Shown here: in pieces, positions 7,903 through 43,670 of the stretch | How the letters are laid out: the number at the start of each line of letters is the position of its first letter | How positions within the stretch are numbered: the stretch's first letter is position 1 | Assembly (NCBI GenBank): GCA_041649575.1 | Contig: JBAZMW010000005.1 | Location: 38,734 to 102,733, forward strand | Direction: 5' to 3' | Source: Patescibacteria group bacterium | GTDB taxonomy: Bacteria > Patescibacteriota > Patescibacteriia > 2-01-FULL-39-33 | DNA length: 64,000 nucleotides | Position numbers and translations under genes: made by a program | Notes under the pieces: generated by a model | Told to the model about the DNA's origin: nothing | Seen by the model: the letters and a program-made list of their open reading frames with translations, nothing else | Database searches by the model: none

Positions 7903-8035
7903 ATATTTTGATTTATTTTATAATTGTCGGTTATGATTATTATAACATAATTATAACACAAGATAAAAATAACTGAAACTCGTCGGCGAGAGTTGCCGGG
8001 TTTTGAAATTAATAAAATTTTCTGCTGATATCAAA

Positions 8036-28120: not shown

Positions 28121-28460
28121 GGTGTCTCTCCTTGGTTGTCACGAGCCGGGCTCGATGATCGCTTCTAAAAAGATGGGGTACAAAAAACCCCTTTCTCTAT
28201 CCGAGAAAGGGATTATCTCAAAGCCAATTCTAACTTATGGAATTAGCTTCGCAATAATCCCTTTTTTGTGATGATGTCTTAAAATTGTTTTAGGACTCCC
28301 GATCATATTAATCAAATTATAGATGGAATTTATTAAAAAGTCAAATAAAAATTACAGTTGACAGAAAAAATTTTTAATGGTAGTTTATAAATACCTTTTT
28401 AATTAAGGCAGGAAAACAGGCTTGCCGACGGCAAGAACTATAAGGAAAGGATCCGATACC

Positions 28461-29849
28461 ATGTCAAACAAAACCGTAAAGCCAGAAATTCTGGGTGGCT
28501 TCCGCGATATGCTACCCAGGGACGCATTGATGTTGCAGGAGATAGTCGACATTGTCAGAAGGGTGTATGAATCCTTTGGCTTCTTGCCGCTGGAGACGCC
28601 CTGTATGGAACGGCAAGAGGTGCTGACGGGCGGCGATCCGCATTTCAACAAAACCATCTTCATTGCCCGCACTTTGCGCGGCACGGAAGACAGGGGCGTT
28701 GAGGAGAGCTGGGACAACGACTTCGCGCTGAGGTTTGATCTGACTGTGTCTCTGGCTCGGGTGGTGGCTGCCTATCCCGACTTGCTCAAGCCGTTCAAGC
28801 GCTACCAGTTGGGCAAGGTGTGGCGCGGCGAGAGCCAGCAGTCGGGGCGTTTTCGTGAGTTCTTTCAGTTGGACTTTGACACCATCGGTTCGCGTTCGCT
28901 CAACGCCGACATCGAGACCATCCAGGTGATTTACGAGTGCCTCAAGGAGCTCGGCATCGCCAACTTCACTATTCGGTTCAACACCCGTAAGGTTCTCAAC
29001 GGGTTGGCCCAGGTGGTGCAAGTGGGTGATCGGGCCAGGAATTTCTTCCGCATTCTCGACAAGCTGGACAGGATCGGCGCCGACGGAGTGAAGGCCGATT
29101 TGATGCGTCAGCCGGACAACGAGTTCGACGAATCGGCCGTGGCCTTGAGTGAGTCGGAAGCGGACAAGGTTCTGGGTTTTTTGTCCATCAAGGATGAACG
29201 ACCCGAGGACACCTTGGCACGGCTGGAGGAGTTTTTTGCCGGTGCTCAAGGCGATGGTCAGGAAGGTCTGGCCGAACTGCGGGGCATTGTCGAGGCGCTT
29301 GATCTCTTGGGCATTCCTCGCGCCAACTGGAAGCTGGATTTGTCGGTAGCCCGTGGCCTGGACTACTACACCGGGCCGGTGTTTGAGACGATACTCAATG
29401 ACTATCCGGAGCTCGGTTCGGTGGTCGGCGGCGGGCGTTTCGATGGCCTGACCAACCGTTTCATCCCGGACAGCAATATTGCGGGCGTGGGTGCCTCGGT
29501 CGGCGTGGACCGGCTGATCGTGGGTATGCAGAAACTCGGTCTGCTCAAGGCCAAGGACTCTCTGACTCAGGTGCTGGTCACCATCTTCGATCCCAAGTAC
29601 GAGCGCGAGTCAAGGGCGATGGCGGCCTACTTGAGACGTTTCGGAGTACGAACCGAGCTCTACCTGGGCGAGGATCGCACACTGCGGGCGCAGTTCGCTT
29701 ACGCCACCAAGAAGGGCATCCCGTTCGTCGTGGTTCTGGGCGAAGAGGAAATCGAGGCCGATAAGGTAGCCTTGAAGGATATGGCCAGTCGCAGCCAGGA
29801 GCTCTTGACAAGAGAGGAGGTTCTTGCTAAGCTGGCAAGAGCAGAATAA
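28461..29849 (+). CDS. hisS: Histidine--tRNA ligase (class II aaRS)
   Basis: Start at MSNKTVKPE (RBS AAGGAAAGG). ILGGFRDMLP N-terminal motif, GGGRFDGL (HisRS GGGRYDGL motif), C-terminal anticodon-binding domain. The tRNA-His gene follows. Confidence 0.85.
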   Translation: MSNKTVKPEILGGFRDMLPRDALMLQEIVDIVRRVYESFGFLPLETPCMERQEVLTGGDPHFNKTIFIARTLRGTEDRGVEESWDNDFALRFDLTVSLARVVAAYPDLLKPFKRYQLGKVWRGESQQSGRFREFFQLDFDTIGSRSLNADIETIQVIYECLKELGIANFTIRFNTRKVLNGLAQVVQVGDRARNFFRILDKLDRIGADGVKADLMRQPDNEFDESAVALSESEADKVLGFLSIKDERPEDTLARLEEFFAGAQGDGQEGLAELRGIVEALDLLGIPRANWKLDLSVARGLDYYTGPVFETILNDYPELGSVVGGGRFDGLTNRFIPDSNIAGVGASVGVDRLIVGMQKLGLLKAKDSLTQVLVTIFDPKYERESRAMAAYLRRFGVRTELYLGEDRTLRAQFAYATKKGIPFVVVLGEEEIEADKVALKDMASRSQELLTREEVLAKLARAE

Positions 29850-29870
29850 GACGCATGTTCGTTCTTAGGT

Positions 29871-29947
29871 GGGCATGTAGCTCAGTTGGCCAGAGCGCAG
29901 GGTTGTGGCCCCTGAGGTCGTGGGTTCGAGCCCCATCGTGCCCCCCA
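29871..29947 (+). tRNA. tRNA-His (anticodon GTG) with encoded CCA
   Basis: Acceptor GGGCATG/CGTGCCC, D-arm GCTC AGTTGGCCAGA GAGC, anticodon arm CAGGG-TTGTGGC-CCCTG (GTG at positions 34-36), T-arm GTGGG TTCGAGC CCCAT, discriminator C plus CCA. Position -1 is T rather than the usual encoded G. Confidence 0.85.
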
Positions 29948-29960
29948 GGCAATCCTAGGT

Positions 29961-29997
29961 CGTTTCCGAAGTTTCAGGAAACGGCCTTTCTTTTTTT
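29961..29997. terminator. Intrinsic terminator between tRNA-His and the thrS 3-prime end
   Basis: CGTTTCC-GAAGTTTCAG-GAAACG hairpin followed by GCCTTTCTTTTTTTTT. A second perfect 12-bp palindrome CACCGCTCCTAG/CTAGGAGCGGTG lies at 30012-30035. Confidence 0.55.
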
Positions 29998-30046
29998 TTG
30001 TTTTTAAATCACCGCTCCTAGCTAGGAGCGGTGGTTGGCTTTTATT

Positions 30047-31801
30047 TTATTTTTTTTCTTTGATTTCCATTTCTATCTCTTCGATAAACTGGGCCACTTT
30101 TTTGCTACCTAGGTCGCCCTCACCACGTTTTCTAATAGCCACGGCGGCGGCGGATTCTTCTTTCTCTCCAACCACTAAAATGTAAGGCACCTTTTCTTTC
30201 TCCGCGTTTCTGATTCTTTTGCCCAGACTCTCGTCGCTGTTGTCCAATTCGACGCGGACATTTTTTTTGAATAATTGGTCTCTAACTTTTTGGCCATAAT
30301 TGTTGAATTTTTCGGAGACGGGGATAATAACTGCTTGCACCGGAGCCAGCCAGGTCGGGAAAGCTCCTGCATAGCGTTCGATCAAAAAGGCCATGGTGCG
30401 CTCCAGGCAGCCGATAGAAGAACGGTGGATGACGATGGGCCGCTCATTTTTCCCTTCTTTGTTGGTGAAAGTTAGGTCGAAGCGTTCCGGCATAACAAAG
30501 TCATATTGGACAGTAAAGGCAGTTTCTTCTTTGCCGCCGGTTCTTTTCATTTGGATATCGATTTTCGGGCCATAGAAAGCGGCTTCGTTGGCGGCCTCAT
30601 AGAACGGAGCCTTAACTTCTATCAGAACCTCGCGCAAAACATTTTCGGCAAAATCCCAGGCATCGTCGTCTTTATAATATTTTTTGGTGTCCGAACGGTC
30701 GCCCAGAGACAGACGATAGCGATAGTCCACGCCCTTTTCCAGGCCCAGCGTCCCATTGATAAAATCAATAAGGTCGAGAACTTCCTTGATGACTTGTTTG
30801 GCCTGGTCTTTGGCAGCGATGATGTGGGCGTCGGCCAAGCAAAACATGCGGACACGGGTCAGACCGGACAATTCGCCGCTTTTCTCGTAGCGATATTGAT
30901 GAGCGATTTCGCCGATGCGGTAAGGCAGCTCGCGGTAGCTGTGCTTTTCGGATTTATAAAACATGAAATGATGCGGGCAGGTCATGGGCTTGAGGATCAA
31001 TTCTTCCTCATCGATTTTCATCACCGGATACATGGTGTCTTTGTAGTAAGGATAGTGGCCGGATTTTTTGTAGAGATCGACTTTGGCCAAATCGGGAGTG
31101 ACCACATGGTGATAACCGCGTTTTAATTCTTCGTCTATAGTAAAGCGCTCAAGCTCTCTTTTGATGGTGGCGCCTTTGGGGCCGAAAGTCGGCAGGCCTT
31201 TGCCAACAAGCTCGGAAAAGACGAAGAGCTTTAAATCTTGGCCGATAACTCGGTGGTCTCTTTTTTTGGCTTCTTCTTGCAGTTTTAAATATTCGTCCAA
31301 TTCTTTTTGGGTGGCAAAAGCAGCGCCATAAATCCGCTGGAGCATTTTATTTTTCTCATTGCCTCGCCAATAAGCGCCAGCGACAGATAATAGCTTGAAA
31401 ATCTTAACTTCGCCGGTGGACTTCAAATGGGGACCACGGCACATATTGGAGAAGTCGCCTTGCTCATAGAAACCAACTTCTTTCTCATCCGCTTGTTTCA
31501 GTTCTTTAGCCAACTCCGCAGTGTAGGTGTATTTTTTGCTTTTTAGAAGTTTGATCGCCTCATCAATCGGCAACAGCTTTTTTTCAATTTTTAAATCTTC
31601 TTTGACAATTTTTTTCATTTCAGCCTCGATGTCGGCCAGGTCGTCTTCGGTCACTTGATTTTGGGCTTCAAAATCATGATAAAAGCCGTTTTCAATGGCC
31701 GGGCCGACACCGGGAACGGCGCCATAAAGTCGTTCAAGCGCCTGCATCATGATGTGTGCCGCGCTGTGATTGAGGATTTCTTGCTGGTCTTGGTTATTCA
31801 T
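30047..31801 (-). CDS. thrS: Threonine--tRNA ligase
   Basis: HSAAHIM editing-domain motif, class II catalytic core, C-terminal anticodon-binding domain. 584 aa with no TGS domain. Confidence 0.9.
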   Translation of the reverse strand: MNNQDQQEILNHSAAHIMMQALERLYGAVPGVGPAIENGFYHDFEAQNQVTEDDLADIEAEMKKIVKEDLKIEKKLLPIDEAIKLLKSKKYTYTAELAKELKQADEKEVGFYEQGDFSNMCRGPHLKSTGEVKIFKLLSVAGAYWRGNEKNKMLQRIYGAAFATQKELDEYLKLQEEAKKRDHRVIGQDLKLFVFSELVGKGLPTFGPKGATIKRELERFTIDEELKRGYHHVVTPDLAKVDLYKKSGHYPYYKDTMYPVMKIDEEELILKPMTCPHHFMFYKSEKHSYRELPYRIGEIAHQYRYEKSGELSGLTRVRMFCLADAHIIAAKDQAKQVIKEVLDLIDFINGTLGLEKGVDYRYRLSLGDRSDTKKYYKDDDAWDFAENVLREVLIEVKAPFYEAANEAAFYGPKIDIQMKRTGGKEETAFTVQYDFVMPERFDLTFTNKEGKNERPIVIHRSSIGCLERTMAFLIERYAGAFPTWLAPVQAVIIPVSEKFNNYGQKVRDQLFKKNVRVELDNSDESLGKRIRNAEKEKVPYILVVGEKEESAAAVAIRKRGEGDLGSKKVAQFIEEIEMEIKEKK

Positions 31802-31944
31802 ATATTTTGTATTAATTTTAGAGTTTTTTTATGAATTGGTCAAATATTATAATTGTCAGAAAAGAAAAGCCTTGTTAAGATAATTATTGCTCGTTACGGA
31901 GCGCACTCTGCACGCTTGAGTCGAGTATGGCAGCGTCTACTCTG

Positions 31945-31990
31945 GCAGCGCGCACCAAGGGATGGGGTTTTCGATGAGAGAATCCCATCA
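31945..31990 (+). repeat. Boundary copy of the GC-hairpin repeat family, followed by a T-run
   Basis: CCAAGGGATGGGG..TCCCATC plus ATTATTTTTG. Preceded by a GGAGCGCACTCTGCACGC-type motif like the array units. Confidence 0.5.
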
Positions 31991-32037
31991 TTATTTTTGT
32001 TTAAATTTAGATATTTAAAAATTTTTAATTTTTAGTA

Positions 32038-32066
32038 TTGACAAAAATATTAATATATGTTAGGAT
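32038..32066 (+). promoter_or_regulatory. Putative promoter of the 226-aa orphan gene, with a ~130-nt leader
   Basis: TTGACA, 17 nt, TAGGAT. The leader contains the palindrome ATGACGCGTCGTCAT. The RBS GGTAGGAG precedes the ATG at 32196. Confidence 0.3.
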
Positions 32067-32195
32067 ATGGGGTCAATGACGCGTCGTCATCTGACGGGAC
32101 AGGCAACTGTGTTGTCCTGGCCAAAGCGAGGGCGGTTTGAGTCATTGAGGCTTAAATCGCAAGTGAGTATTTCAACAAGGTAGGAGTAACTAGTC

Positions 32196-32876
32196 ATGGC
32201 GAAAGTCAAGCCGGAAGTCGAGCCGGAAGTCAAGTCGGGAGAATCGAAATCGAAGGTAGTGAGAGTGAAAGTGGAGGGGGTTTACCCAATCCTCATGAAT
32301 CCCATGACCGAGGCCACGCTCGACAGCTTGATCACGGGCAATCGCCTGCCGCCGACCAAGGATTTGGCGTTCGAGGAGGTCGCGAGCAGGAAGATTTACC
32401 GTGAAGGCGGCGAGCCCGATGGCGCTATCGGTATTCCCGTGGAGAATCTGTGCTCCTGTCTGGTGCGGGCGGGACGCGAAGTCAAGAATGGCAAGAAGCA
32501 GATCAGCACGGCGGAAAGCACCACGCTGTTCTCATTTCTCTCCATTCGCGGCGAGTTCCTGCCGTTCACCAACGATCTGACCCGGCACGGCGACGGCAAG
32601 GGTTGGGTTGTCGACAAACGTCGCGGTTGCCTGCACGACAAGGGCAAATCCACGGCGGTCGGCATCCTGCGGCCGAAATTCCCCGTCTGGGCATTCGAGT
32701 TCGTCATGGACCTCGACTTGACCGAGATCGACGAGGGCGTCGTGCGGAAGCTTGTCGAGGTCGCGGGCAAGAAAGTCGGCCTGGGCGATTTCCGGCCCAC
32801 CTGCAAGGGGCCGTTCGGTCGGTTCCAGGTCGTGAGCTGGGAAGAGGCCAAGAAAGAAGTTCCGGCCGCGGCCTAG
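32196..32876 (+). CDS. Hypothetical protein (226 aa), first gene of the hairpin-array island
   Basis: GC-rich ORF with a good RBS and no motif recognised by me. Immediately followed by the hairpin repeat array. Confidence 0.55.
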   Translation: MAKVKPEVEPEVKSGESKSKVVRVKVEGVYPILMNPMTEATLDSLITGNRLPPTKDLAFEEVASRKIYREGGEPDGAIGIPVENLCSCLVRAGREVKNGKKQISTAESTTLFSFLSIRGEFLPFTNDLTRHGDGKGWVVDKRRGCLHDKGKSTAVGILRPKFPVWAFEFVMDLDLTEIDEGVVRKLVEVAGKKVGLGDFRPTCKGPFGRFQVVSWEEAKKEVPAAA

Positions 32877-32949
32877 CTCCGGTGTACATCATGTAACACG
32901 GCTACCCTGTCACGTGGGGTTTTCCAACCTCGTGCCAGGCACGCCGCAC

Positions 32950-34990
32950 CATGGGGCGGGAGAGCAGCAATGTTCTCCCGCCAGCACTTATACATTATTA
33001 TCAATGCGTGCCGATGCCACCAAAGGCACGGCTTGGTCCGGTGGCGTCCGCTGCTGCAATGAGCTGCATGGGGTGGGAGTTCGCAAGAATTCCCGCCAAC
33101 TAATCAATGCGTGTTATAATGAAAATAATAAATATTGATTAGTACATTCTTCTGCGTGTGGTGTTGTTTCGCTCGGTTGCGTAGAGCGTCGCATCGCATG
33201 GTCGACCTCACCACGGGGCGAGGGTTCATCGCAATCCTCGCCGACTAATCAGTGATTATTACGGTTTAATAATTAGTGATCAGTTCTTTTTCACAGTCCT
33301 TGGTGCGGCTAAGCTCCGCTCCGCGCAGTCCGCTCTGCTGTTGTTTGCCAGGGGGCGGGAGAGCAGAGATGTTCTCCCGCCAGAGTGTATCACCCATTTT
33401 CCCAACTGGCCAAGGCGTGGCCCGGCGGTGTGGGCAATGGTTCGGCTCGGGGCGGGAGTCCATCGCGACTCCCGCCAGCTAATCAATGGTTGTTAAAAAA
33501 TTTAGTAATTATTGATTAGTTCGTTTATAAATCATGATGTGGCTGGCCGTCGCATGTCTTAGTTGCGTATCGTGTAGCCGCGCTTTCCCTGGGGCGAGGA
33601 TTGAAATACATCCTCGCCAGCTAATCAATGTCCATTAATTAATTAGTGGTTATTGATTAGTACCTTTTCACTTTGACTCAGCTAGCCGCCGTAGCGCGGA
33701 GTAAGCTGCAGTGGGGCTCACCCCAGCTATGTTGAGCTCGCCATGGGGCGGGGATGGGAAACTGTCTCCGCCAAAACTACTATCACCGTGTCGTTGGGTC
33801 GGCTTCGGCTACCTTTGATCCGGCGAACCGGCGCAGAGCGTGGGGCGGGGATTGTAACAAATCCCCGCCAACTAATCAGTGTGTATTATGCAAATAGTAA
33901 ATATCGATTAGCTCTTTCTGGTCCTAGCATTCTTGGCCGCCGTGGTGTGAGGCACTGCAAGACGGAGCGGAGCTGCGCACGGGGCGGGAGGTAGCAATAC
34001 TCTCCCGCCAATATCTACCAAACACTTCTCAATGGCAGGGCTTTCCGGCGCGTAGTTCAGCCCCGCCAGGCGAAGCGTTCTGTTGCAAGGGGCGGGGGTT
34101 CAGTGATGTTCTCCCGCCGTACCTTTTGCTTTTTAGGCCGCCCAGAGCAGTCAGCGGTAGAGCCTGGTCCTCTGTGGCAGTCCATGGGCGGGAGTCCTCA
34201 CCCGGCTCCCGCAACTATTTATTGGCGTTTGTTCCTCGGCGGAGCTACGCAGCCTGCCGCATAGTTCGGCCAGGTGTAGCGACGCACTCCCTGGGGCGGA
34301 GGTCGGTAGTCATGATCTCCGCCGACTAATCAGTGTTCATAATAATTTGTGATTAATGATTAGTTCATTTGTTAGACGGTTATGCTCAGGCGCAGTTCCG
34401 CGGAGCAGAGTATAGCTCGGCAGACACCGGCGTACTTGTCCATGGGGCGGAGACGGGAAACTGTTTCCGCCGAGCGATCAACCAGCTTCGGCTGTCAGAA
34501 AAGGATAATCGGTATGACTGGTGGTATGGGCATGCACAAACATGGCACGAGCGGTCATGTGCATAATGACCAGCATTTCACTGGCAAGAAGGGCGGCAAG
34601 CGTGCTGAGCGGAAAGGAAAGACGCACAAACAGCGTCGCCTGAACCGCGGGACGCACAAGAACAGGTTCAAGGAAGACTAGCTGACATTAGGCCATGGTG
34701 CCGCGGAGCAAACATCTCTCCGGCATTGCGGGCTGTGGCGCGGGGCGGAAATCGGCAACGGTTTCCGCCATTAATCAATGTTTATTAAGAATTTAGTAAT
34801 TATTGATTAGTTTTAGTTCTTTCGGCAAAGCTGAGTAAAGCTGCCTGTTGTCCGCCGACGCACGGGGCGGGAGTTCGCAAGAATTCCCGCCAAGCACATC
34901 TCATCTTTGGCGGCATCGTTGGGCGCAGTATGGCTCGGCATGCTTTGCCAGAGTGCGGCGCGGAACGGAGATCGGTAACGGTCTCCGTTA
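32950..34990 (+). repeat. Array of 16 compound hairpin repeat units (GC stem-loop GGCGGGAG-N9-14-CTCCCGCC, 7 of them followed by an AT-rich hairpin with CTAATCAATG/CATTGATTAG arms)
   Basis: GC hairpins start near 32953, 33070, 33215, 33352, 33449, 33591, 33745, 33842, 33981, 34089, 34186, 34294, 34444, 34742, 34864 and 34964. All are in the same orientation, preceded by CCAWGG/CACGG. Loops vary. Stems show compensatory changes. No ORF over 2.2 kb except a 55-aa candidate. Confidence 0.8.
34514..34681 (+). CDS. Candidate small basic His-rich protein (55 aa) inside the repeat array
   Basis: MTGGMGMHKHGTSGHVHNDQHFTGKKGGKRAERKGKTHKQRRLNRGTHKNRFKED. SD-like AAGGA upstream. Occupies the one long (about 300 nt) gap between hairpins. 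Confidence 0.3.
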   Translation: MTGGMGMHKHGTSGHVHNDQHFTGKKGGKRAERKGKTHKQRRLNRGTHKNRFKED

Positions 34991-35013
34991 TTATATTTTT
35001 AATAAATTTATTG

Positions 35014-35042
35014 TTGACAATTTTAATATTTTTTGTTAATAT
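35014..35042 (+). promoter_or_regulatory. Near-consensus sigma70 promoter upstream of the helicase gene
   Basis: TTGACA (35014-35019), a 17-nt AT-rich spacer, TAATAT (35037-35042). The leader carries a 9-bp hairpin CAGGCCAAA/TTTGGCCTG. Confidence 0.5.
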
Positions 35043-35150
35043 ATGGTGTCAGGCCAAAATCAATAACAAGCAGTTCTTTGACACTTTGGCCTGTGAGAAT
35101 ATAGGAAATTGAAGAAGCGAAGTAAAACCAGGCGAGAAGGAAGACAAATC

Positions 35151-36938
35151 ATGAAACATCCGAAACATCTGGACCTTTGGAGTTGTTTCCCGCATGACTG
35201 TTATCCAAATATCTTGGATAATCAGAGGGACGCTCTCCGGGTCATCGAGCAGGAAGGCGGTTGCGCTCTATTGCAACTGCCGACCGGCTCAGGCAAGACA
35301 GCAGTGGGGTACGCTTTTCTCAAGGCCGTCTTGAAGAGGGCTGAGGGGCCGGTGTACTATGTCGTTCCCACCAAGACGCTGGTGGAGCAGGTCAGAAGGC
35401 TCCACCCCGACGTCAAGATCATATTTGGTCGAAACGAATACTCATGTCTGTTCTACCCCGATCAGGAGCTGAAGGCCGACGAAGTGCCTTGCTCGATGCT
35501 GCACGATTGCCCGCATCGCGTGGACCAGGAAACTGGCCAGACCGCTGTGCCCGGCGTCAAGCCCTGTCCTTATTTGCAGAAGAAGTGGGAGGCGAGCCAA
35601 GGCGGTATCGTGGTTTGCACTACGGCGTTCTTTCTCTTCACCCACTTGTTCGCCAGCGAAGACGCCAAGCCGGCAGCGCTGGTGATCGACGAAGCCCATG
35701 GCATTGCTCATACGGTTCGCGGTTGTCTCTCCTACGAGATTACCGACTACCATCTTGGGCGGGCGGTGGAGCTACTACGGCCAGTGGACAACGAACAGGC
35801 CGAGCGACTTGACGCTTTCTTGCGGACGATGGTTCGTATCATCAAGAAGAAGGCGTCTGGCGAGCGGCAGATCATCGAGGATGAGGAGGTCGCCAAGCTG
35901 CTGGATAAGCTCAAGCAGATCAACATCACGCGACTGGGAGAAAAGGTGCGCCAGGCGATTAGGCAGGGAGTAATCGACGCCAAAGCGGAACGCGAAACCC
36001 TGCGTCGGCTGGAGATTGTCTTACGCGACTTGTCGCATTATGCCCGATCGCTCGAATACTCCCGGCCTAACGAGAAGCGTAACGCCCTCAACTACACCTA
36101 TGCGTTTTGGAGCCAGGAGCGCGCCGAAGGCGAGCGGGTGAAGTACCGTCTGTTCATCAAGTGCTACTATGTGGCGCCGCTCATACGGCGGATGTTGCCG
36201 GAGATGACTGTGGCTTACTCGGCGACCATCGGCGATCCCGAAGTGTTCGGTTTCGAGACTGGCATTGAGGCGCCGTTTCACAGCTTCGGTTCGGACTTCC
36301 CGGTTGGCAAAACGCAGATTTTTGTGCCGACCGATACGCCGAATTTGGCCGTCAACGTTCGTGGTCGTCAGGATCGCACCAGGGCGCTAAGGAGGATCGC
36401 CAAGGCCTGCCGCCGTTTTGCCGATCAAGGCAGGCGGTCGCTGGTGGTGGTGATCTCCAACGAGGAACGCGCTAAGTTCCTGACGCTCGCCGGCGAGGAA
36501 GGCGTCGCAGCCGTCAGCTACGGTAATGGCGTCAAGCCAAAAGACGCGGCCCTGAAGTTCAAGGAGGGTGAGGGTGATGTCTTGGTTGGCACAGCGGCCA
36601 ATTACGGAGAGGGCTTTGACTTACCCAAGGGCATCGCTCCGGTCATCTTCTTTCTCCGGCCAGGATTTCCGCATCCGCACGATCCGGCGACAGTGTTTGA
36701 GGAGAGGCGATTCGGCGGCATGCGTTGGCGGATCTGGAATTGGCGTGTGATGATGGAGGCCTTGCAGGTGCGGGGTCGCAACATCAGAAGCGCCGAGGAT
36801 GTGGGCGTCTGCTTCTTCATTTCCCAGCAGTTCCGGCGGTTCGTTTTCGCCGCCCTGCCCGACTGGTTGCAGCCGGCGTATTGTGGCGATAAGGACTGGG
36901 AGGAGTGCCTTGAAGAGGCGGAGCGATTGCTTTCCTAG
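35151..36938 (+). CDS. XPD/Rad3/DinG-family Fe-S DNA helicase (superfamily 2, DEAH)
   Basis: Walker A LQLPTGSGKT, motif Ia YYVVPTKTL, four Cys between Ia and II (C-SCLF..PCSM..DCPH..KPCPY) as in the XPD/DinG Fe-S domain, motif II LVIDEAHG, motif VI QVRGRNIRSAEDVGV. Start at ATG 35151 (RBS GAAGGAAG); the track start at 35109 is TTG. Confidence 0.8.
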   Translation: MKHPKHLDLWSCFPHDCYPNILDNQRDALRVIEQEGGCALLQLPTGSGKTAVGYAFLKAVLKRAEGPVYYVVPTKTLVEQVRRLHPDVKIIFGRNEYSCLFYPDQELKADEVPCSMLHDCPHRVDQETGQTAVPGVKPCPYLQKKWEASQGGIVVCTTAFFLFTHLFASEDAKPAALVIDEAHGIAHTVRGCLSYEITDYHLGRAVELLRPVDNEQAERLDAFLRTMVRIIKKKASGERQIIEDEEVAKLLDKLKQINITRLGEKVRQAIRQGVIDAKAERETLRRLEIVLRDLSHYARSLEYSRPNEKRNALNYTYAFWSQERAEGERVKYRLFIKCYYVAPLIRRMLPEMTVAYSATIGDPEVFGFETGIEAPFHSFGSDFPVGKTQIFVPTDTPNLAVNVRGRQDRTRALRRIAKACRRFADQGRRSLVVVISNEERAKFLTLAGEEGVAAVSYGNGVKPKDAALKFKEGEGDVLVGTAANYGEGFDLPKGIAPVIFFLRPGFPHPHDPATVFEERRFGGMRWRIWNWRVMMEALQVRGRNIRSAEDVGVCFFISQQFRRFVFAALPDWLQPAYCGDKDWEECLEEAERLLS

Positions 36939-36989
36939 TATCACGGACTGGCTCGCCATGGCTGCGCCTTGCTTGCCACTGCCTGCCGT

Positions 36990-37486
36990 CGTCCGCCAAG
37001 GGGCGGAGATCTGGTCCATCCGGGTCTCCGCCACATTCTTTGTTTTCAAACGTCGCTCGGCAACGTTGGGTCTTCAATGGCTTACCGCTGTTGCGCGTCG
37101 CAAGGGGCGAGGATGGTCTTTGACTAATTCTCGCCATTCTACACTTGTCAAAGAGATTCTTTGGCAGATGTGGTCTTTATGAGGTAGCGTATTCTTCAGT
37201 TGAGCTCAGTCTAGCTCGGTACAGCTGAGCGCCGCAGCCATTTCCAAGGGGCGGGGGTTGGGCTTGCCCAAATCTCCGCCAACGCTTATCTTCTCGGCAA
37301 TGCTTGGCACAGTATCCCAGTGTTGTGCGTCGCTGAGTTAGCCAAGGGATGGGACTGGTCAAACGGTCTCATCAAGATTATTTTTCTGGGCACGTCTCAG
37401 TATTCAATGGCCCGCTGCTGTTGAGTAGTGCAGAGCCCCCAGTCCAAGGGGCGGGAATCCATCGTGGTTCCCGTCGATTTTTTTTA
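36990..37486 (+). repeat. Second block of the GC-hairpin repeat family (5 copies) downstream of the helicase, ending in a T-run
   Basis: Copies near 37000, 37105, 37248, 37342 (variant GATGGGAC/GTCTCATC) and 37448. All are preceded by CCAAGGGG. The last is followed by TTTTTTTT. Confidence 0.7.
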
Positions 37487-37540
37487 TTTAAAATTAATTG
37501 CTAAATTCTAGGTTTTAAGCTAAAATATTCGTAAATCCCC

Positions 37541-39247
37541 ATGTCTTACACCATAGAAAAAATCAAAAAGCAAATTATCGAACAGGTCTCTGGCGCCGTA
37601 GGCCAGAAAATCGATAAAAGCCAGCTGGAAGTGACGGTGCCGCCGGACGCCTCTTTAGGCGATTTGGCCGTGCCCTGTTTTTATCTGACCAAACTGCTGC
37701 GGCGTTCGCCCAACCAGATTGCCGACGAGCTGCAGGCCAGAATCCGTCCGACAGGACTGATCAAGTCGGTGCAAAATGTCGGGCCTTATTTGAATTTTTT
37801 TGTCAGTAGCGGAGTTTTTGGCAAGGAGGTTTTAAAAGAAATAGCCAGATTAAAAGATAAATACGGCCGCGGCAAATTAGGCGAAGAAAAAGTAATGATT
37901 GAGTTTTCCCAGCCCAATACCCACAAAGAATTTCATATCGGCCACGTGCGTAATGCGGTTTTGGGTGATAGTTTGGTGAAGCTTAATAAGTTCGCCGGAC
38001 GCAAAGTGGTGGCGGTCAATTATATTGGCGATATCGGCGCTCATGTGGCCAAGTGTTTGTGGGCGCTTAAAAAATTTCACCAGCAGGAAGAACCGCCAAA
38101 GAATAAAGGCAAATTTTTAGGTCAGATTTATACCGAAGCGGTGAGAAAAATAGAAAGCAATCCCCAGTTCAAGCGAGAGGCCGATGAGGTTTTGCAAAAA
38201 TTGGAGCGAGGCGACAAAAAGATGCTGGCTTTGTGGCAGAAAACCAGGAAGTGGAGTTTGGTGGAGTTTGAGGCGATTTACAAAACGCTGGGCATCAAGT
38301 TTGATCAAATTTTTTATGAGAGCGAGGTGGAGCAGCCGGGCAAAAAGATCGTTGAGAAGCTGCTAAAAGACGGCTTGGCCGAAAAATCGGAAGGTGCCGT
38401 AATTATCAATTTGGAAAAATACAATTTAAAAAATTTTTTACTGCTCAAATCCGACGGCTCATCGCTTTATTCCACCAAAGACCTGGCCTTGGCCGAGCTC
38501 AAATTCAAAAAATTCAAAATTGACAAAAGCGTGGTGGTAGTCGACAGCCGACAAACTTTTTATTTGCAGCAACTATTCAAAACCCTGGAAGTCATCGGCT
38601 TCAAAAAAAAGATGGAACATATCGCTTACGAGTTCGTCACCTTAAAGGATGGCGCCATGTCTTCGAGAGCGGGCAACGTGGTGTTGTTTGAAGATTTTTT
38701 TGAAGAAATGAAAGCTCTGGCCAAAAACGAAACCAAGAAAAGGCACGAGAATTGGCCGGCCAAAAAAATCAGCCAAGTGGCCCGACAGCTGACTTTATCG
38801 GCTGTTAAATTCAATATGCTGAAAATCAGCAACAGCAGCATCATTGTTTTTGACAAAAATGAAGCTTTGAGTTTTGAGGGCTTTACCGGCCCTTACCTGC
38901 AATACACTTTAAGCCGCATTGCCAGTTTGCTAAAAAAGAGCCAGACCGTTGTCGCCGCCAACATTGATTACAGTAAATTAAACAGTGACTTGGAAAAAGA
39001 AATTATTTTGAAGCTGGCGGAGCTGCCGGAGGTTATTAAGCGGGCGACAGCAACCAGCGAACCCAGCGAACTGGCCAAGTATTTATTTGATTTGTCCAGG
39101 CTGTTTTCTAATTTTTATCAGAGTTTGTCGATTTTGACCGCCGAAGAAAAAACCAAAAAAGCGCGATTGACGCTAGTGGTGGCGGTCAGGCAGGTTTTGG
39201 TTAACGGTTTGAATCTGTTGGGCCTGGAAGCACTGGAGCAAATGTAG
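37541..39247 (+). CDS. argS: Arginine--tRNA ligase
   Basis: HIGH motif HIGHVRNAVLGD, class I core, DALR anticodon-binding C-terminus ending in ..EQM. 568 aa. Confidence 0.9.
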   Translation: MSYTIEKIKKQIIEQVSGAVGQKIDKSQLEVTVPPDASLGDLAVPCFYLTKLLRRSPNQIADELQARIRPTGLIKSVQNVGPYLNFFVSSGVFGKEVLKEIARLKDKYGRGKLGEEKVMIEFSQPNTHKEFHIGHVRNAVLGDSLVKLNKFAGRKVVAVNYIGDIGAHVAKCLWALKKFHQQEEPPKNKGKFLGQIYTEAVRKIESNPQFKREADEVLQKLERGDKKMLALWQKTRKWSLVEFEAIYKTLGIKFDQIFYESEVEQPGKKIVEKLLKDGLAEKSEGAVIINLEKYNLKNFLLLKSDGSSLYSTKDLALAELKFKKFKIDKSVVVVDSRQTFYLQQLFKTLEVIGFKKKMEHIAYEFVTLKDGAMSSRAGNVVLFEDFFEEMKALAKNETKKRHENWPAKKISQVARQLTLSAVKFNMLKISNSSIIVFDKNEALSFEGFTGPYLQYTLSRIASLLKKSQTVVAANIDYSKLNSDLEKEIILKLAELPEVIKRATATSEPSELAKYLFDLSRLFSNFYQSLSILTAEEKTKKARLTLVVAVRQVLVNGLNLLGLEALEQM

Positions 39248-39345
39248 GAAAAATTTAAAACTAAAAGTTTAAAGCTCAAAAGGTAAAGTAGGTTAGAGGG
39301 AATGTTTTAAGTTTTTAGTTGTTTGTGCTATAATATAACTGCAAT

Positions 39346-39729
39346 ATGAATAGTAGCGACTATAAAATCTTATTAGTCGAAGACGAGCCGGAACTGGTCC
39401 AGTTGTTCAGTAACGCTCTGAAAAACGAGGGTTTTAAGATGGAGTTGGCCACTGACGGCCATATTGCTTTGAAAAAAATCGCCGAATTCAAGCCAGATTT
39501 AATGCTTTTGGATTTGGTAATTCCCCAGCTGGATGGTTTTCAGGTTTTGGAAAAAATTAAAAAAGAAAAACAGGACAAGAAGATGCTGGTCTATGTTTGG
39601 AGCAATCTGACCCAGGAGAGCGAAATCGGCCGTGCCAAGAAATTAGGCGCTAGCGGCTATCTAATCAAGTCGGATTATACGCCCACCAAACTAGTTGCCA
39701 AAATAAAAGAAATTTTACGGATTCAATAA
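39346..39729 (+). CDS. Single-domain response regulator (CheY-like receiver)
   Basis: KILLVEDEPEL.. and DLMLLDLVIPQLDGF (phospho-acceptor Asp). 127 aa. Extended -10 TGCTATAAT upstream. Confidence 0.8.
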   Translation: MNSSDYKILLVEDEPELVQLFSNALKNEGFKMELATDGHIALKKIAEFKPDLMLLDLVIPQLDGFQVLEKIKKEKQDKKMLVYVWSNLTQESEIGRAKKLGASGYLIKSDYTPTKLVAKIKEILRIQ

Positions 39730-39769
39730 AATATTAAATTGAAAATAGATAATTAATAAAGAAATTGTT

Positions 39770-39964
39770 ATGAAACCAGCAGTTAACGACAGTTGCATCG
39801 GTTGCGGCACTTGCGAAAGTATTTGCCCGGCAGTCTTTAAGGTGACCGAAAAGGATGGCCGAATGGTCGCCATAGTTTTGGAAGCCGACTTGGCGGCGGA
39901 AAAAGCCAAGATCGAGGAATCTATCAGTTCTTGTCCGGTGCAAGCCATTACTTTGGGAGAGTAA
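39770..39964 (+). CDS. Ferredoxin (single 4Fe-4S/3Fe-4S cluster)
   Basis: CIGCGTCESICP plus a distal CP motif. 64 aa. Confidence 0.7.
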   Translation: MKPAVNDSCIGCGTCESICPAVFKVTEKDGRMVAIVLEADLAAEKAKIEESISSCPVQAITLGE

Positions 39965-40073
39965 GGGAATTGTAAAAAAGGTGTCCGCGAGTCGGGCGTC
40001 TTTTTTGTTTAATTAAAAATTGACTAAAACAGCAGAAATTGTTAAGATAAGAGCAATTTTTAAATTAAAAATT

Positions 40074-43000: not shown

Positions 43001-43670
43001 TTTAGAATTATCAAAAGTGATGGCGCCGTTTACTCCGTTTATCGCCGAGCAGGTTTATAAGGAAGTGGGCCCGTCCAGCCAGGGTGGCCGGGCAAGCGGT
43101 GAGCAGGAATCAGTGCATTTAGAAAAATGGCCTGAAGAATCAGAAATATTAATTAAGGAAGAGGTTATTAAACAAATGGAACAGGTGAGAAAAATCGTAG
43201 AATTAGGCTTGGCCAAACGGGCCGAAGCGGGAATTAAGATTCGGCAGCCGCTCGGAAACTTTCAATTTTCAATTTTCAATTTTCAAAATAACGCCGACCA
43301 GTATTTAAAAATTATCGCCGACGAACTTAATGTAAAAAAAGTTGTTTATAACAAAAATCTCGGCCAAGAAATAGAGTTAGACACGGAGATTACCAAGGAG
43401 CTGAAGCTGGAGGGCGTGGCGCGAGAATTGGTTCGCACTATTAATAATTTGCGCAGAGAGGCCGGGCTGACAATTCAAGATCAGATTAAAATTGACTGGC
43501 AATCGGAGGGCGAAACAATCAGGCAGGTTTTTGCGGTTGAAAGTTTAGTCGAGGAGTTGAAAAGGGCAACGATTACCAAGGAATTTTTAGACAAGGACAA
43601 CCAGGGCCAAGTGGCGGAAATCAATGGTGAAAAAATTAAGCTGGAAATAAACAGGACCATACCTTCTTAA
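40074..43670 (+). CDS. ileS: Isoleucine--tRNA ligase with an inserted histidine-phosphatase (PGAM-like) domain
   Basis: HIGH (PHYGHL) and KMSKKLQNYP motifs. About 230 extra residues between the two halves of the zinc knuckle (WKCVCGE ... KCEKCGNEM) carry RHGEAENN, SSPVLRTKESAE, EVDFGIVEG and ISHGDPL. Start placed at MNNIIADKEKE. Confidence 0.9.
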   Translation: MNNIIADKEKEIQKFWQDNQIFEKSLAQTKNGQRYSFYDGPPFATGTPHYGHLVASLMKDVVPRFWTMRGHYVERRWGWDCHGLPIENMVEKELGFKNKKDIVEYGIANFNEYCRSKVLTYVAEWKKTIKRFGRWADMENPYKTMDVDYMESIWWVFRQLWDKGLIYEGYRSMHICPRCETTLSQSEVSEGYRDVEDLSVTWKFKVLPPPHSPPRAEGEDIPTYLLAWTTVPWSTLSTMGLAIGADFDYVKAKVKNEHLIFIKDKLEEVMAGVSNYEIIEEFKGSKMIGWEYEPVSDIFKNLPEVKNKKNAYHVFAADYVEATEGTGIVTINGSYGEVDLLSAQQNDLPVLMDVKLDGRFADFAGAYAGLDVKDAQVKFVADMEKKGLVWSSEKYTHSYPHCWRCDTPLLNYSTSSWFVKVTKIKNQALALAKQINWSPAHIKEGRFGKWLEGARDWSISRQRFWASVIPIWKCVCGEMKVLGSVDELYKSSSDNPPQITKVIFVRHGEAENNISHINSNSLDKYPLTKKGAGQVSESAAKIKEILAESSTKAVIFSSPVLRTKESAEIISHYLGLKYELSDEIKEVDFGIVEGKQLDELMDEYNPLPADKKWNFKNGQTGESQKDIQERMYKWFKKVLEENKNKIIIIISHGDPLMALINKIKGKTIEEHVLSLESDSYIQKGEVRVAYVMNETKLEIDLHKHSIDRVVLKCEKCGNEMSRIPDVLDTWFDSGSMPYAQQHYPFANKEKFEAGFPAQFIAEGVDQCRAWFYYLHVNAAAITNKIAYENVIANGIVLAQDGRKMSKKLQNYPEPEALMEKYGADALRFYLLSAPVMAAENLNFSEAGVKEAMQKVVMLLNNILNFYKLYADVIPTEAVGRVEGSLRKERDSSVTSPAGDSGRNDNVLDQWLLAKLNLLIKEVAGAMEAYDLPRAVRPIAGFIDEFSTWWLRRSRDRFKGADEKDKQQALAVFGHTLLELSKVMAPFTPFIAEQVYKEVGPSSQGGRASGEQESVHLEKWPEESEILIKEEVIKQMEQVRKIVELGLAKRAEAGIKIRQPLGNFQFSIFNFQNNADQYLKIIADELNVKKVVYNKNLGQEIELDTEITKELKLEGVARELVRTINNLRREAGLTIQDQIKIDWQSEGETIRQVFAVESLVEELKRATITKEFLDKDNQGQVAEINGEKIKLEINRTIPS

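What the first reader, a model, noticed from the sequence alone, without database searches (positions are those of the whole stretch)
33090..34815. Second conserved module in the units: AT-rich hairpin with CTAATCA(A/G)TG / CATTGATTAG arms and a GCGGAG..AGCTGCGCA motif before each GC hairpin
At least 7 units continue directly after the GC hairpin with (A)CTAATCAATG, 20-30 nt of AT-rich loop, then ATTGATTAGT (near 33100, 33246, 33478, 33620, 33868, 34324, 34769). In addition a loose motif (GCGGAGCAGAGTATAGCTCGGCA, GCGGAGTAAGCTGCAG, GCGGAGCTGCGCA, GCTGAGTAAAGCTGCC, ACAGCTGAGCGCCGCAGCC) lies 10-30 nt upstream of most GC hairpins. The unit is therefore a about 110-150 nt compound element with fixed internal order and orientation, more like tandem gene-like modules (possibly each with its own AT-rich promoter-like segment) than a simple palindromic repeat.
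Basis: seen in the sequence. Interest (0 to 1): 0.6.

Follow-up and report, generated by a model that had tools for sequence, protein, structure and literature searches.

The report
Guide-RNA array of a VIPR system
The repeated units are tandem genes for the short guide RNAs of a recently described VIPR RNA-guided DNA-recognition system in a Patescibacteria genome, and the AT-rich palindrome is a second RNA hairpin that separates some of these guides rather than a recognisable promoter.

Summary
Seven AT-rich palindromes (CTAATCARTG…YATTGATTAG) directly follow GC hairpins at 33100-34810.

The units are VIPR guide RNAs (vrRNAs; bioRxiv 10.64898/2026.04.26.720920):
- The upstream ORF (32196-32876) is a Vipr RAMP protein. 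Its family profile hits the SUSP1 Vipr structure at E=2.6e-10, and the predicted fold is Cas7-like.
- Each of about 22 units has 9-16 in-phase pentamers Y-N-N-n-G, then a 9-bp GC "tail" hairpin that shows covariation.
- A DinG/XPD-like helicase (35151-36938) is the accessory gene. It accompanies vipr in about 24 Patescibacteria loci.

The AT palindrome is an 18-21 bp A-U/G-U RNA hairpin on the guide strand:
- It shows covariation and conserved G·U pairs, and folds 2-8 kcal/mol better than the opposite strand.
- It abuts the tail and is followed by a U-rich run.
- It is conserved in one sister contig. Sequence-unrelated AT hairpins sit in the same place in two further loci.
- Other sister loci carry a terminator plus promoter, or a hammerhead, at this position.
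- It does not match the sigma-70 consensus that the locus's own promoters match.

I read it as array punctuation, by termination or RNase III-type processing. This is unproven. Targets were not established. The locus is a new member of a known kind.

The parts
31853..31881 (+). sigma-70-like promoter (TTGTCA-17-TAAGAT) ahead of the solitary upstream vrRNA
31906..31989 (+). vrRNA 0: pentamer tract plus tail hairpin 31961-31989, followed by a T tract (terminator-like)
32038..32066 (+). sigma-70-like promoter of vipr (TTGACA-17-TAGGAT)
   Evidence: conserved in L064
32067..32195 (+). conserved vipr leader with two hairpins (32097-32122, 32132-32160)
   Evidence: 78% identical to the L064 leader
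32196..32876 (+). vipr gene: 226-aa RAMP protein with G-loop GLGDFRPTCKGPFGRF
32905..32982 (+). vrRNA 1 (tail 32955-32982)
33002..33097 (+). vrRNA 2 (tail 33072-33097). Its NN code is shared over 7 pentamers with an L064 guide.
33100..33142 (+). AT hairpin 1 (CTAATCAATG…TATTGATTAG)
33147..33242 (+). vrRNA 3 (tail 33217-33242): 14 pentamers, all starting with a pyrimidine
33245..33283 (+). AT hairpin 2 (right arm diverged to GTGATCAG)
33289..33381 (+). vrRNA 4 (tail 33354-33381)
33401..33476 (+). vrRNA 5 (tail 33451-33476)
33479..33519 (+). AT hairpin 3 (19-21 bp, -13.2 kcal/mol)
33528..33618 (+). vrRNA 6 (tail 33593-33618)
33621..33660 (+). AT hairpin 4 (-15.5 kcal/mol)
   Evidence: (I8)
33667..33772 (+). 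vrRNA 7 (tail 33747-33772)
33784..33869 (+). vrRNA 8 (tail 33844-33869)
33872..33911 (+). AT hairpin 5
33913..34009 (+). vrRNA 9 (tail 33983-34009)
34026..34118 (+). vrRNA 10 (tail 34091-34118)
34133..34212 (+). vrRNA 11 (tail 34188-34212)
34230..34323 (+). vrRNA 12 (tail 34295-34323)
34326..34363 (+). AT hairpin 6
34381..34471 (+). vrRNA 13 (tail 34446-34471)
34514..34681 (+). small basic ORF (55 aa) with RBS, embedded in the array; conserved in L001 and L064
34696..34769 (+). degenerate hairpin 34696-34728, only 3 pentamers, then tail 34744-34769 (truncated vrRNA)
34771..34810 (+). AT hairpin 7 (TTAATCAATG…TATTGATTAG)
34821..34891 (+). vrRNA 16 (tail 34866-34891)
34899..34989 (+). vrRNA 17 (tail 34964-34989), followed by a T tract: terminator-like end of array 1
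35014..35042 (+). sigma-70-like promoter of the helicase gene (TTGACA-17-TAATAT)
35151..36938 (+). accessory (vap-type) gene: 595-aa DinG/XPD-like SF2 helicase
36942..37475 (+). array 2: five vrRNAs with tails 37002-37032, 37106-37135, 37250-37280, 37348-37373 and 37450-37475. The last is followed by T8 (terminator). No AT hairpins.

Best explanation
Window 31850-37480 is a VIPR (Viral Interference Programmable Repeat) locus in the chromosome of a Patescibacteria bacterium. The flagged stretch (33090-34815) is the core of its main guide-RNA array.

Shown here: each unit is a vrRNA gene. It has 9-16 in-phase pentanucleotide repeats Y-N-N-n-G, a relaxed form of the published YNNGG, and ends in a 9-11 bp GC tail hairpin.

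Inferred from the two preprints: Vipr (32196-32876) polymerises on the tract with one protomer per pentamer. It sequesters the G/Y scaffold and presents the NN dinucleotides (positions 2-3). These read double-stranded DNA with one base skipped per repeat. The DinG/XPD-like helicase encoded after the array is the accessory effector.

Shown here: the AT-rich palindrome is an RNA hairpin on the guide strand. It is 18-21 bp, made of A-U and G-U pairs, with one conserved internal mismatch. It abuts the tail hairpin at 7 of 16 junctions of array 1 and is followed by a U-rich run. It divides the array into blocks of 1-4 vrRNAs.

Inferred: it is array punctuation. It forms or releases vrRNA 3' ends from a long transcript that starts at the vipr promoter. 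The mechanism is either partial intrinsic termination or cleavage of the roughly two-turn duplex by an RNase III-type enzyme. It would then play the role that terminator-promoter modules, second terminator hairpins or hammerhead ribozymes play at the same position in sister loci.
For: Identity as VIPR
- The ORF226 family profile hits PDB 36pp 'SUSP1 Vipr protein' at E=2.6e-10 over nearly its full length. The single sequence gives E=0.0085 and aligns the G-loop GLGDFRP…FGRF.
- The G-loop residues that contact G1, G2 and Y in SUSP1 (D177/W178/R179) correspond to D198/F199/R200. R200 is invariant and D198/F199 are at least 90% conserved in 26 homologues.
- The AF2 model (pLDDT 83.6) matches Cas7-family RAMPs.
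- Pentamer periodicity.
- The tail hairpin is paired in at least 21 of 22 copies at 9 positions, with several pair types at positions 5-9.
- The published definition of VIPR, including the variant YNNNG repeats and the helicase accessory genes.
- The same layout (vipr, array, helicase) occurs in L001, L065 and about 24 Patescibacteria loci.
- Guide 33002-33097 and an L064 guide share 7 consecutive NN dinucleotides. There are 0 of 14 changes at positions 2-3 against 6 of 21 at scaffold positions.

AT hairpin as RNA
- In all 10 modules (7 in the window, 3 in L064) the + strand folds 2.3-8.2 kcal/mol better than the - strand. With the tail included the difference is 6.6-14.3 kcal/mol.
- 88.5% of cells are paired, 6 pairs show changes on both sides, and 0 of 500 shuffles reach the covariation score. 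Sliding the partner drops pairing to 21-55%. G·U at columns 20-46 and U·G at columns 25-41 are conserved.
- Sequence-unrelated AT hairpins with the same strand bias follow the tails in L006 and L011.

Punctuation role
- At the same position, L001 and L059 have a T tract plus a TTGACA-17-TATAAT promoter. L008 and L014 have a second GC terminator hairpin plus a promoter. L023 has a hammerhead.
- In the window, hairpin-plus-T-tract terminators are called mainly at the ends of the three transcription units (T0, T17, T22), with weaker calls at four internal tails. Consensus promoters occur only at 31853, 32038 and 35014.
Against: - No transcript data exist for this organism, so expression, vrRNA ends and processing are all inferred.
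- Position 4 of the pentamer is G in only 41% of cases, so the published GGY recognition may be altered here.
- Targets were not established. Six guides were scanned against IMG/VR under the 1-nt-skip rule. One gave an exact 10-pentamer match, and its flanking pentamers do not match.
- Only 7 of about 21 junctions carry the AT hairpin, so it cannot be the only way the guides are separated.
- The hairpin has only two G-C pairs and its U run starts 1-3 nt after the stem. That is atypical for an efficient intrinsic terminator.
- Blocks of 1-4 guides per AT module resemble the 1-2 guides per promoter seen in sister loci. This fits the promoter idea equally well.
- The VIPR papers are unreviewed preprints. 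Their figures and data tables could not be read, so the type assignment is an inference.
Confidence: 0.8

Rival explanations
1. The AT module is a promoter, possibly combined with a terminator. Each block of 1-4 vrRNAs would then be its own transcription unit.
For: - In sister loci L001, L059, L008 and L014 the segment after the tail clearly contains TTGACA-17-TATAAT promoters, with 1-2 guides per promoter. The window's AT modules delimit blocks of similar size.
- Module 1 contains a perfect extended -10 (TGTTATAAT at 33112-33120). Several modules have TATTAT, CATAAT or TATTAA at the same place.
- The motif GTTCTTTT that follows the right arm also lies in the promoter-like junctions of L006 and L011.
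Against: - No AT module passes the sigma-70 scan on the + strand. The locus's own two gene promoters score 10 of 12.
- There is no -35 element. The -10-like hexamers are inconsistent, and the TG is 0-3 nt away instead of 1.
- Arm-to-arm spacing varies over 38-45 nt.
- Promoter function does not explain the palindromic symmetry, the compensatory changes or the strand-specific G·U pairs.
Confidence: 0.2
2. The AT palindrome is a DNA operator for a dimeric regulator, for example the small basic protein encoded inside the array. The regulator would control expression of the array.
For: - The outer arms are conserved in sequence (CTAATCA / TGATTAG; 18 invariant columns in 10 copies), as expected for a sequence-specific site.
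- A conserved small basic ORF lies in the array in three loci.
Against: - Half-site spacing varies by up to 7 bp.
- The inner stem varies yet stays complementary through G·U pairs, which are mismatches in duplex DNA and on the other strand.
- L006 and L011 have AT hairpins of unrelated sequence at the same place, so structure rather than sequence is conserved.
- No HTH-type regulator was found in the island.
Confidence: 0.08
3. The units are not guide RNAs. They would instead be another kind of repeat: a degenerate CRISPR array (type IV, given the DinG-like helicase), REP/BIME-type extragenic palindromes, or simply a stack of terminators.
For: - The helicase's best defence-model match is the type IV-A CRISPR-associated DinG (PADLOC, 1.8e-38).
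- The GC hairpins are palindromic and extragenic.
- Rfam gives a chance-level CRISPR-DR9 hit (E=9.6).
Against: - The 'repeats' differ in loop and inner stem. The 'spacers' are 45-80 nt and carry a 5-nt periodicity that CRISPR spacers lack.
- No Cas1/2, Csf1-3 or Cas6 was found. The adjacent RAMP groups by sequence with Vipr.
- The hairpins occur only in this island, not dispersed across the window, and no RAYT-type transposase was seen.
- Only 7 of 22 tail hairpins are called terminator-like, and only three of these (31961-31989, 34964-34989, 37450-37475) close a transcription unit.
Confidence: 0.03

Closest known systems
VIPR systems (Vipr RAMP + vrRNA + vap), bioRxiv 10.64898/2026.04.26.720920 and 10.64898/2026.04.26.720927; reference system from Escherichia phage SUSP1 (type II)
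   Same: - A single small RAMP protein with a conserved G-loop.
- Guide RNAs of about 100 nt or less, built from 9-16 pentanucleotide repeats with a pyrimidine/guanine scaffold and variable NN, capped by a conserved 3' structured tail.
- One guide upstream of vipr and arrays downstream of the genes.
- A single accessory gene.
- No CRISPR array and no adaptation genes.
   Different: - The context is cellular (Patescibacteria housekeeping genes), not a phage.
- The repeat is relaxed to YNNnG.
- The tail is a plain hairpin. No pseudoknot was looked for.
- The accessory gene is a DinG/XPD-like helicase, not a DNA-binding protein.
- There are about 22 guides instead of 4.
- Some junctions carry an AU-rich hairpin that the preprint text does not mention.
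Helicase- or nuclease-associated VIPR types III-V of the same preprint
   Same: The preprint states that types III-V encode predicted nucleases or helicases and that some types use YNNNG-like repeats. This locus fits that description.
   Different: The type could not be assigned, because the figures and data tables were not readable. Since types III and V are called the only nuclease-encoding types, a helicase-only type IV is inferred, not shown.
Hammerhead-interspersed and promoter-interspersed vrRNA arrays (preprint fig. S19; sister loci L023, L001, L008 here)
   Same: An element placed between the tail of one vrRNA and the start of the next, presumably defining vrRNA ends.
   Different: Here the element is a roughly 20-bp A-U/G-U hairpin. 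It has no catalytic core (no Rfam hit) and no consensus promoter.
Type IV-A CRISPR-Cas (Csf complex + DinG/Csf4)
   Same: A RAMP-based RNA-guided complex paired with a DinG-family helicase. The helicase here matches the type IV-A DinG model over its full length.
   Different: No CRISPR repeats, Cas6 or Csf1-3. The guide has a noncontiguous pentamer code. The match to NCBIfam cas_csf4 is far below its cut-off (19.5 against 400 bits).
RNase III processing hairpins (phage T7 early mRNA, rRNA operons, tracrRNA:repeat duplexes)
   Same: About two turns of mostly A-U/G-U duplex with a conserved internal mismatch, lying between functional RNAs in a polycistronic transcript.
   Different: Cleavage was not tested, and the resemblance is structural only.

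Membership tests
VIPR system | Vipr protein: small RAMP (RRM core, G-loop, thumb) homologous to characterised Vipr | tested here: met
   Family profile against PDB 36pp SUSP1 Vipr: E=2.6e-10, profile positions 9-191 of 206. Single sequence: E=0.0085 with the G-loop aligned. AF2 pLDDT 83.6, with top Foldseek hits to Cas7-family RAMPs. The D-F-R G-loop triad is conserved (R200 invariant; D198 and F199 at 90% or more).
VIPR system | vrRNA: at least 4 (typically 9-16) tandem pentanucleotide repeats YNNGG or a related consensus (NNNGG, YNNNG, NNNNG) | tested here: met
   Most of the 22 units have 9-16 in-phase pentamers. One is truncated to 3 pentamers, and two show a frame slip next to the tail that limited the automatic count. 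Y1 is 90%, G5 69% and G4 41%, and positions 2-3 are unbiased. 15 of the 16 detector hits in the window lie in the island, against about 2 in shuffles.
VIPR system | Conserved structured 3' tail after the repeat tract | tested here: met
   A 9-bp hairpin with at least 21 of 22 standard pairs at positions 1-9. GC, AU and GU alternate at positions 5-9. A pseudoknot, as in the SUSP1 clade, was not examined.
VIPR system | vrRNAs lie in the intergenic regions flanking vipr, on the same strand, without a CRISPR array | tested here: met
   All units are on the + strand between 31906 and 37475, around vipr and the helicase gene. Neither TRF nor the repeat finder shows a CRISPR-like array in the window.
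VIPR system | One adjacent accessory gene (vap) with a predicted DNA-related function | tested here: met
   A DinG/XPD-like helicase. Homologues of 41-58% identity lie within about 1-2.5 kb of vipr in about 24 Patescibacteria-type loci. They are absent from 80 viral Vipr loci.
VIPR system | vrRNAs are expressed, bind Vipr, and direct dsDNA binding by the 1-nt-skip rule | not testable with these tools
   There is indirect support only. NN positions are conserved while scaffold positions drift between orthologous guides. The target scans were inconclusive.
VIPR system | Viral or proviral context (typical but not obligatory: 25.5% are cellular in the preprint) | tested here: not met
   The island lies between the ThrRS and ArgRS genes, and no phage genes were seen next to it. 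Its GC content is higher than the flanks: 0.58-0.60 against 0.45-0.47.
CRISPR-Cas type IV | Array of near-identical direct repeats separated by unique spacers of about 32 nt, with Csf1-3 and Cas6 | tested here: not met
   The hairpins are only 62-92% alike, the 'spacers' are 45-80 nt and 5-nt periodic, and only a DinG-like helicase is present.
Sigma-70 promoter (for the AT module) | TTGACA-like and TATAAT-like hexamers 16-18 bp apart | tested here: not met
   No + strand hit in any of the seven modules. The vipr and helicase promoters and the L001 inter-unit modules are hit.
Intrinsic terminator (for the AT module) | Stable hairpin directly followed by a U tract | tested here: inconclusive
   The hairpins fold at -10 to -15.5 kcal/mol. 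The 10 nt after the stem contain 5-8 T (my reading). However, the stems have only 2 G-C pairs and are not called by the scan.
Hammerhead ribozyme (for the AT module) | Conserved catalytic core CUGAUGA…GAAA with three helices | tested here: not met
   No Rfam hit in the island, even at E<=10. Sister locus L023 does have one.

The most novel reading that the evidence does not exclude
The roughly 20-bp A-U/G-U hairpin that abuts the vrRNA tail may be a previously undescribed way of punctuating VIPR guide arrays. It would be either a host RNase III-type processing site or a leaky terminator. It recurs with unrelated sequences in at least four Patescibacteria lineages, alongside the promoter-, ribozyme- and stagger-based architectures already reported. 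This clade also pairs Vipr with a helicase that most resembles the type IV-A CRISPR DinG. That hints at a mechanistic or evolutionary link between VIPR and type IV interference.
Probability: 0.35. Interest if true: 0.6.

Novelty: new member of a known kind. Interest (0 to 1): 0.5.

Why it matters
VIPR was first described in 2026 preprints as a minimal RNA-guided DNA-recognition system with a noncontiguous code, and as a proposed ancestor of the CRISPR RAMPs.

This locus is a large example, with about 22 guides. It is chromosomal, lies in an ultra-small Patescibacteria genome, and is linked to a helicase.

It gives a concrete test case for three open questions:
- How are vrRNA arrays transcribed and cut into single guides?
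- What does a DinG-like accessory helicase add to a binding-only effector?
- What do such systems target in episymbiotic bacteria, whose phages are poorly known?

The AU-hairpin junction, if it proves to be a processing signal, would be useful for building multiplexed vrRNA arrays.

Tried and rejected
- Rfam, at gathering and permissive thresholds: only tRNA-His and chance-level hits. There is no known RNA family for the units or the AT hairpin.
- tRNA-like or T-box idea, raised by the neighbouring aaRS genes: no ARAGORN or Rfam support.
- Phage collection, by DNA and protein: no match.
- Close relatives of Vipr in IMG/VR and JGI metagenomes: none.
- AT-module pattern (CGCCNNYTAATCARTN{18,32}TGATTAGTWC) in the metagenome collection: no match.
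- CTAATCARTG in 63 related loci: none. L064, which does carry the module, was fetched later.
- Self-targets of the guides elsewhere in the window, under nine pairing and skip rules: no better than shuffled guides.
- Phage targets under the published rule. Six guides were scanned as exact 10-pentamer patterns.
  - One guide hit a single phage, present as two contigs (L067 and L068). The site spans the endolysin start, and the skipped bases fall on wobble positions.
  - However, 7 of the 8 flanking NN bases mismatch.
  - From my own estimate of the collection size, which is not a measured figure, chance expectation is roughly 0.1-0.3 hits per scan.
  - A second guide reaches 21 of 28 on the same contig (0 of 200 shuffles, roughly p 0.03 after multiple testing).
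  - I treat this as inconclusive.
- Sigma-70 promoter reading of the AT modules: rejected as the main explanation.
- CRISPR, REP and plain-terminator readings: rejected (see rival explanations).
Full report
**What is in the sequence**

The stretch 32877-35010 is non-coding except for one 55-codon ORF. It is filled with GC hairpins of the form GGGGCGGGAG-loop-CTCCCGCC, all on the + strand. Four to five more follow the next gene (36940-37480), and one precedes the upstream gene (31961-31989).

Seven hairpins are followed within 0-2 nt by an AT-rich palindrome, CTAATCARTG … YATTGATTAG. These are at 33100-33142, 33245-33283, 33479-33519, 33621-33660, 33872-33911, 34326-34363 and 34771-34810. The arm motif is enriched: 15 hits against 6.4 +/- 2.6 in shuffles, and 11 of the 15 lie in the array.

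**The 'loose motif' is a pentanucleotide periodicity**

I cut the sequence upstream of every hairpin into pentamers anchored on the hairpin. Almost every pentamer starts with a pyrimidine and most end with G. Over 264 pentamers:

| Pentamer position | Composition |
|---|---|
| 1 | C/T in 90% (33-61% in the other four frames) |
| 2-3 | unbiased |
| 4 | G in 41% |
| 5 | G in 69% |

A simple detector (8 pentamers, at least 14 of 16 scaffold matches) puts 15 of its 16 + strand hits in the whole 64-kb window inside 31906-37347. Block shuffles give about 2 hits and the - strand gives 2.

**The neighbouring genes identify the system**

The window comes from a Patescibacteria MAG. ORF226 is 100% identical to the protein 'WC518_04360', and 189 homologues were found, mostly from Patescibacteria. 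ORF 32196-32876 has no Pfam or NCBIfam match but matches phrog_4652.

- A profile of 26 homologues hits one solved structure, 36pp 'SUSP1 Vipr protein', at E=2.6e-10 over almost the whole length.
- The single sequence aligns the G-loop GLGDFRP…FGRF.
- An AF2 model (pLDDT 83.6) resembles Cas7-family RAMPs such as Csm3, type VII Cas7 and Cmr.

Two 2026 preprints describe VIPR systems. A VIPR system has:
- a roughly 20-kDa RAMP protein (Vipr);
- one accessory gene (vap);
- roughly 100-nt vrRNAs made of 9-16 YNNGG repeats followed by a conserved structured tail.

In those systems Vipr forms a filament with one protomer per repeat. It hides the GGY bases and presents the NN bases, which read dsDNA while skipping every third base.

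The preprints also report variant repeats (NNNGG, YNNNG, NNNNG), helicase or nuclease accessory genes in types III-V, and several array architectures: plain, staggered, hammerhead-interspersed and single.

The units here fit this definition point by point (see the membership table). The G-loop residues that hold G1, G2 and Y in SUSP1 (D177, W178, R179) correspond to D198, F199 and R200. R200 is invariant and D198/F199 are at least 90% conserved in this family.

The tail hairpin is paired in at least 21 of 22 copies at nine positions, and GC, AU and GU alternate at positions 5-9.

**The accessory gene**

ORF 35151-36938 is a DinG/XPD-like SF2 helicase.
- Pfam gives DEAD, ResIII, DEAD_2 and Helicase_C_2.
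- The closest solved structures are XPD/Rad3.
- Its best defence-model match is the type IV-A CRISPR-associated DinG (1.8e-38, full length).

Homologues of 41-58% identity lie within about 1-2.5 kb of vipr in about 24 of the Patescibacteria-type loci that I fetched, usually with the array between the two genes. None of the 80 viral Vipr loci (at most 39% identity to this Vipr) has such a helicase. Nor do the non-Patescibacteria genome loci, apart from L059, which is labelled Gammaproteobacteria. This is therefore a cellular, helicase-linked VIPR clade.

The preprint's type IV is the likely label. That is an inference from its text only. Types III-V have enzymes, and III and V are called the only nuclease-encoding types.

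**The AT-rich module**

It is an RNA-level hairpin on the guide strand.
- In all ten copies (seven here, three in sister contig L064, whose Vipr is 63% identical), the + strand RNA folds 2.3-8.2 kcal/mol better than the - strand, because of G·U pairs.
- With the tail included, the difference is 6.6-14.3 kcal/mol, and z = -6.0 to -6.8.
- On the alignment of the ten modules, a 21-bp helix is 88.5% paired.
- Six pairs change on both sides, and no shuffle of 500 reaches the covariation score.
- Sliding the partner drops pairing to 21-55%.
- G·U (columns 20-46) and U·G (columns 25-41) are conserved, and one position (columns 21-45) is mostly mismatched.
- Arm-to-arm length varies from 38 to 45 nt.
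- The stem begins 0-1 nt after the tail hairpin and is followed by a T-rich run, such as GTTCTTTTT or GTACCTTTT.

AT-rich hairpins of unrelated sequence, with the same strand bias, follow the tails in L006 and L011. In L006 they do so at strictly every second junction, and in L011 at many junctions.

**What occupies that position elsewhere**

| Locus | Element after the tail |
|---|---|
| L001, L059 | T tract, then a TTGACA-17-TATAAT promoter; in L001 the -35 sits inside the hairpin arm |
| L008, L014 | second GC-rich hairpin with a T tract, then a promoter |
| L023 | hammerhead (Rfam Hammerhead_3, 34 bits, E=4e-5; CUGAUGAG…CGAAA visible) |

In the window, consensus promoters occur only at 31853, 32038 and 35014. 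Hairpin-plus-T-tract terminators are called at the tails at 31961, 34964 and 37450, which end the three transcription units. Weaker calls fall on the internal tails at 34188, 37002 and 37348. None of the AT modules is called as a promoter. The junctions without AT modules are only 15-25 nt long, which is too short for a promoter.

The simplest reading has three transcription units:
1. vrRNA 0 alone.
2. vipr, 17 vrRNAs and the small ORF.
3. The helicase and 5 vrRNAs.

The AU hairpins would then act on the RNA to form or release vrRNA ends. I cannot decide between partial intrinsic termination and RNase III-type cleavage. Two helical turns, few G-C pairs and a conserved internal mismatch are compatible with cleavage. 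A weak embedded promoter remains possible. Module 1 has a perfect extended -10, and the block sizes resemble the promoter spacing in sister loci.

**Is the code used?**

One guide here (33002-33097) and one in L064 share seven consecutive NN dinucleotides. There are 0 of 14 changes at positions 2-3, against 6 of 21 changes at positions 1, 4 and 5. That is the pattern expected if positions 2-3 carry the information.

Targets remain unknown.
- There are no self-targets in the window.
- Of six guides scanned against IMG/VR under the published rule, one matched a phage contig exactly over 10 pentamers.
- That contig encodes terminase, endolysin and an SU10-like portal. The site spans the endolysin start codon, and the skipped bases fall on wobble positions.
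- The flanking pentamers do not match. A second guide reaches only 21 of 28 on the same contig.
- I consider this inconclusive.

**Verdict**

The finding is real and is now explained in kind. It is the guide-RNA array of a helicase-associated VIPR system, so it is a new member of a family described only months ago.

The part of the finding that is not covered by the text I could read is the AU-rich hairpin that punctuates some junctions. Its existence as an RNA structure is well supported. Its function is inferred.

Noticed in passing
window 34514-34681: A 55-aa, very basic ORF (MTGGMGMHKHGTSGH…KGKTHKQRRLNRGTHKNRFKED) with a good RBS sits inside the vrRNA array. Homologues sit inside the arrays of L001 (11829-11984; 61% identity, E=2e-8) and L064 (from 3075, cut by the contig end). 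It has no Pfam, PHROG, PADLOC or NCBIfam match. It may be an extra accessory protein.
   Followed up: partly
window 32067-32195; L064 640-785: The vipr leader is conserved (78% identity, including GTTGTCCTGGCCAAAGCRAGGGCGGT) and contains two hairpins. Its 3' part looks like a degenerate vrRNA end (…CAAAGCGAGG|GCGG hairpin). It may be a Vipr-binding or autoregulatory element.
   Followed up: partly
window 35151-36938: The accessory helicase matches the PADLOC model for the type IV-A CRISPR-associated DinG over its full length (1.8e-38). It is far below the NCBIfam Csf4 cut-off. It has the Cys-rich segment typical of XPD/DinG Fe-S helicases (CSMLHDCPHR…CPY).
   Followed up: partly
L067 4126-4154 (IMGVR_UViG_3300035702_000060) and L068: An exact 1-nt-skip match of 10 pentamers of guide 33147-33216. 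It lies at the terminase-end/endolysin-start junction of a phage contig, and the skipped bases fall on wobble positions of the endolysin ORF. The flanking pentamers do not match. Guide 33289-33381 scores 21 of 28 at L067 5870. It could be a real target or chance.
   Followed up: partly
L006 6600-8500; L011 1340-3700: Sister arrays alternate two junction types. In L006 the alternation is strict. In type A the tail is followed by a U-rich run and an AT hairpin. In type B the tail is followed by an AT-rich segment containing GTTCTTTTTAATAT. The motif GTTCTTT recurs after the AT hairpins of the window and L064.
   Followed up: partly
L023 7180-7234 and about 7290-7390, 7880-7930: Hammerhead ribozyme cores (CUGAUGAG…CGAAA) lie between vrRNAs in a sister helicase-type locus (Rfam Hammerhead_3, 34 bits, below the gathering score). 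This agrees with the ribozyme-interspersed arrays reported in the preprint.
   Followed up: partly
window 34696-34769: After the small ORF there is a degenerate hairpin (TGGTGCCGCGGAG…CTCTCCGGCATTG), then only three pentamers before a normal tail. This is probably a truncated or decayed vrRNA.
   Followed up: no
window 28422-43670: Four aminoacyl-tRNA synthetase genes (HisRS, ThrRS, ArgRS, IleRS) and tRNA-His (29871-29947) cluster around the island. The IleRS carries an inserted histidine-phosphatase (His_Phos_1) domain at residues 520-688. In L003 and L004 a vipr gene also lies next to ThrRS.
   Followed up: no
window 31850-37480 versus flanks: The island is richer in GC than its neighbours. 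vipr is 0.605 (GC3 0.79) and the helicase is 0.582, against ThrRS 0.466 and ArgRS 0.448. This suggests horizontal origin or different constraints.
   Followed up: partly
window 63357-63753: A 216-nt tandem repeat (1.8 copies, 83% identity) at the end of the window. It is probably a repeated domain in a coding region.
   Followed up: no
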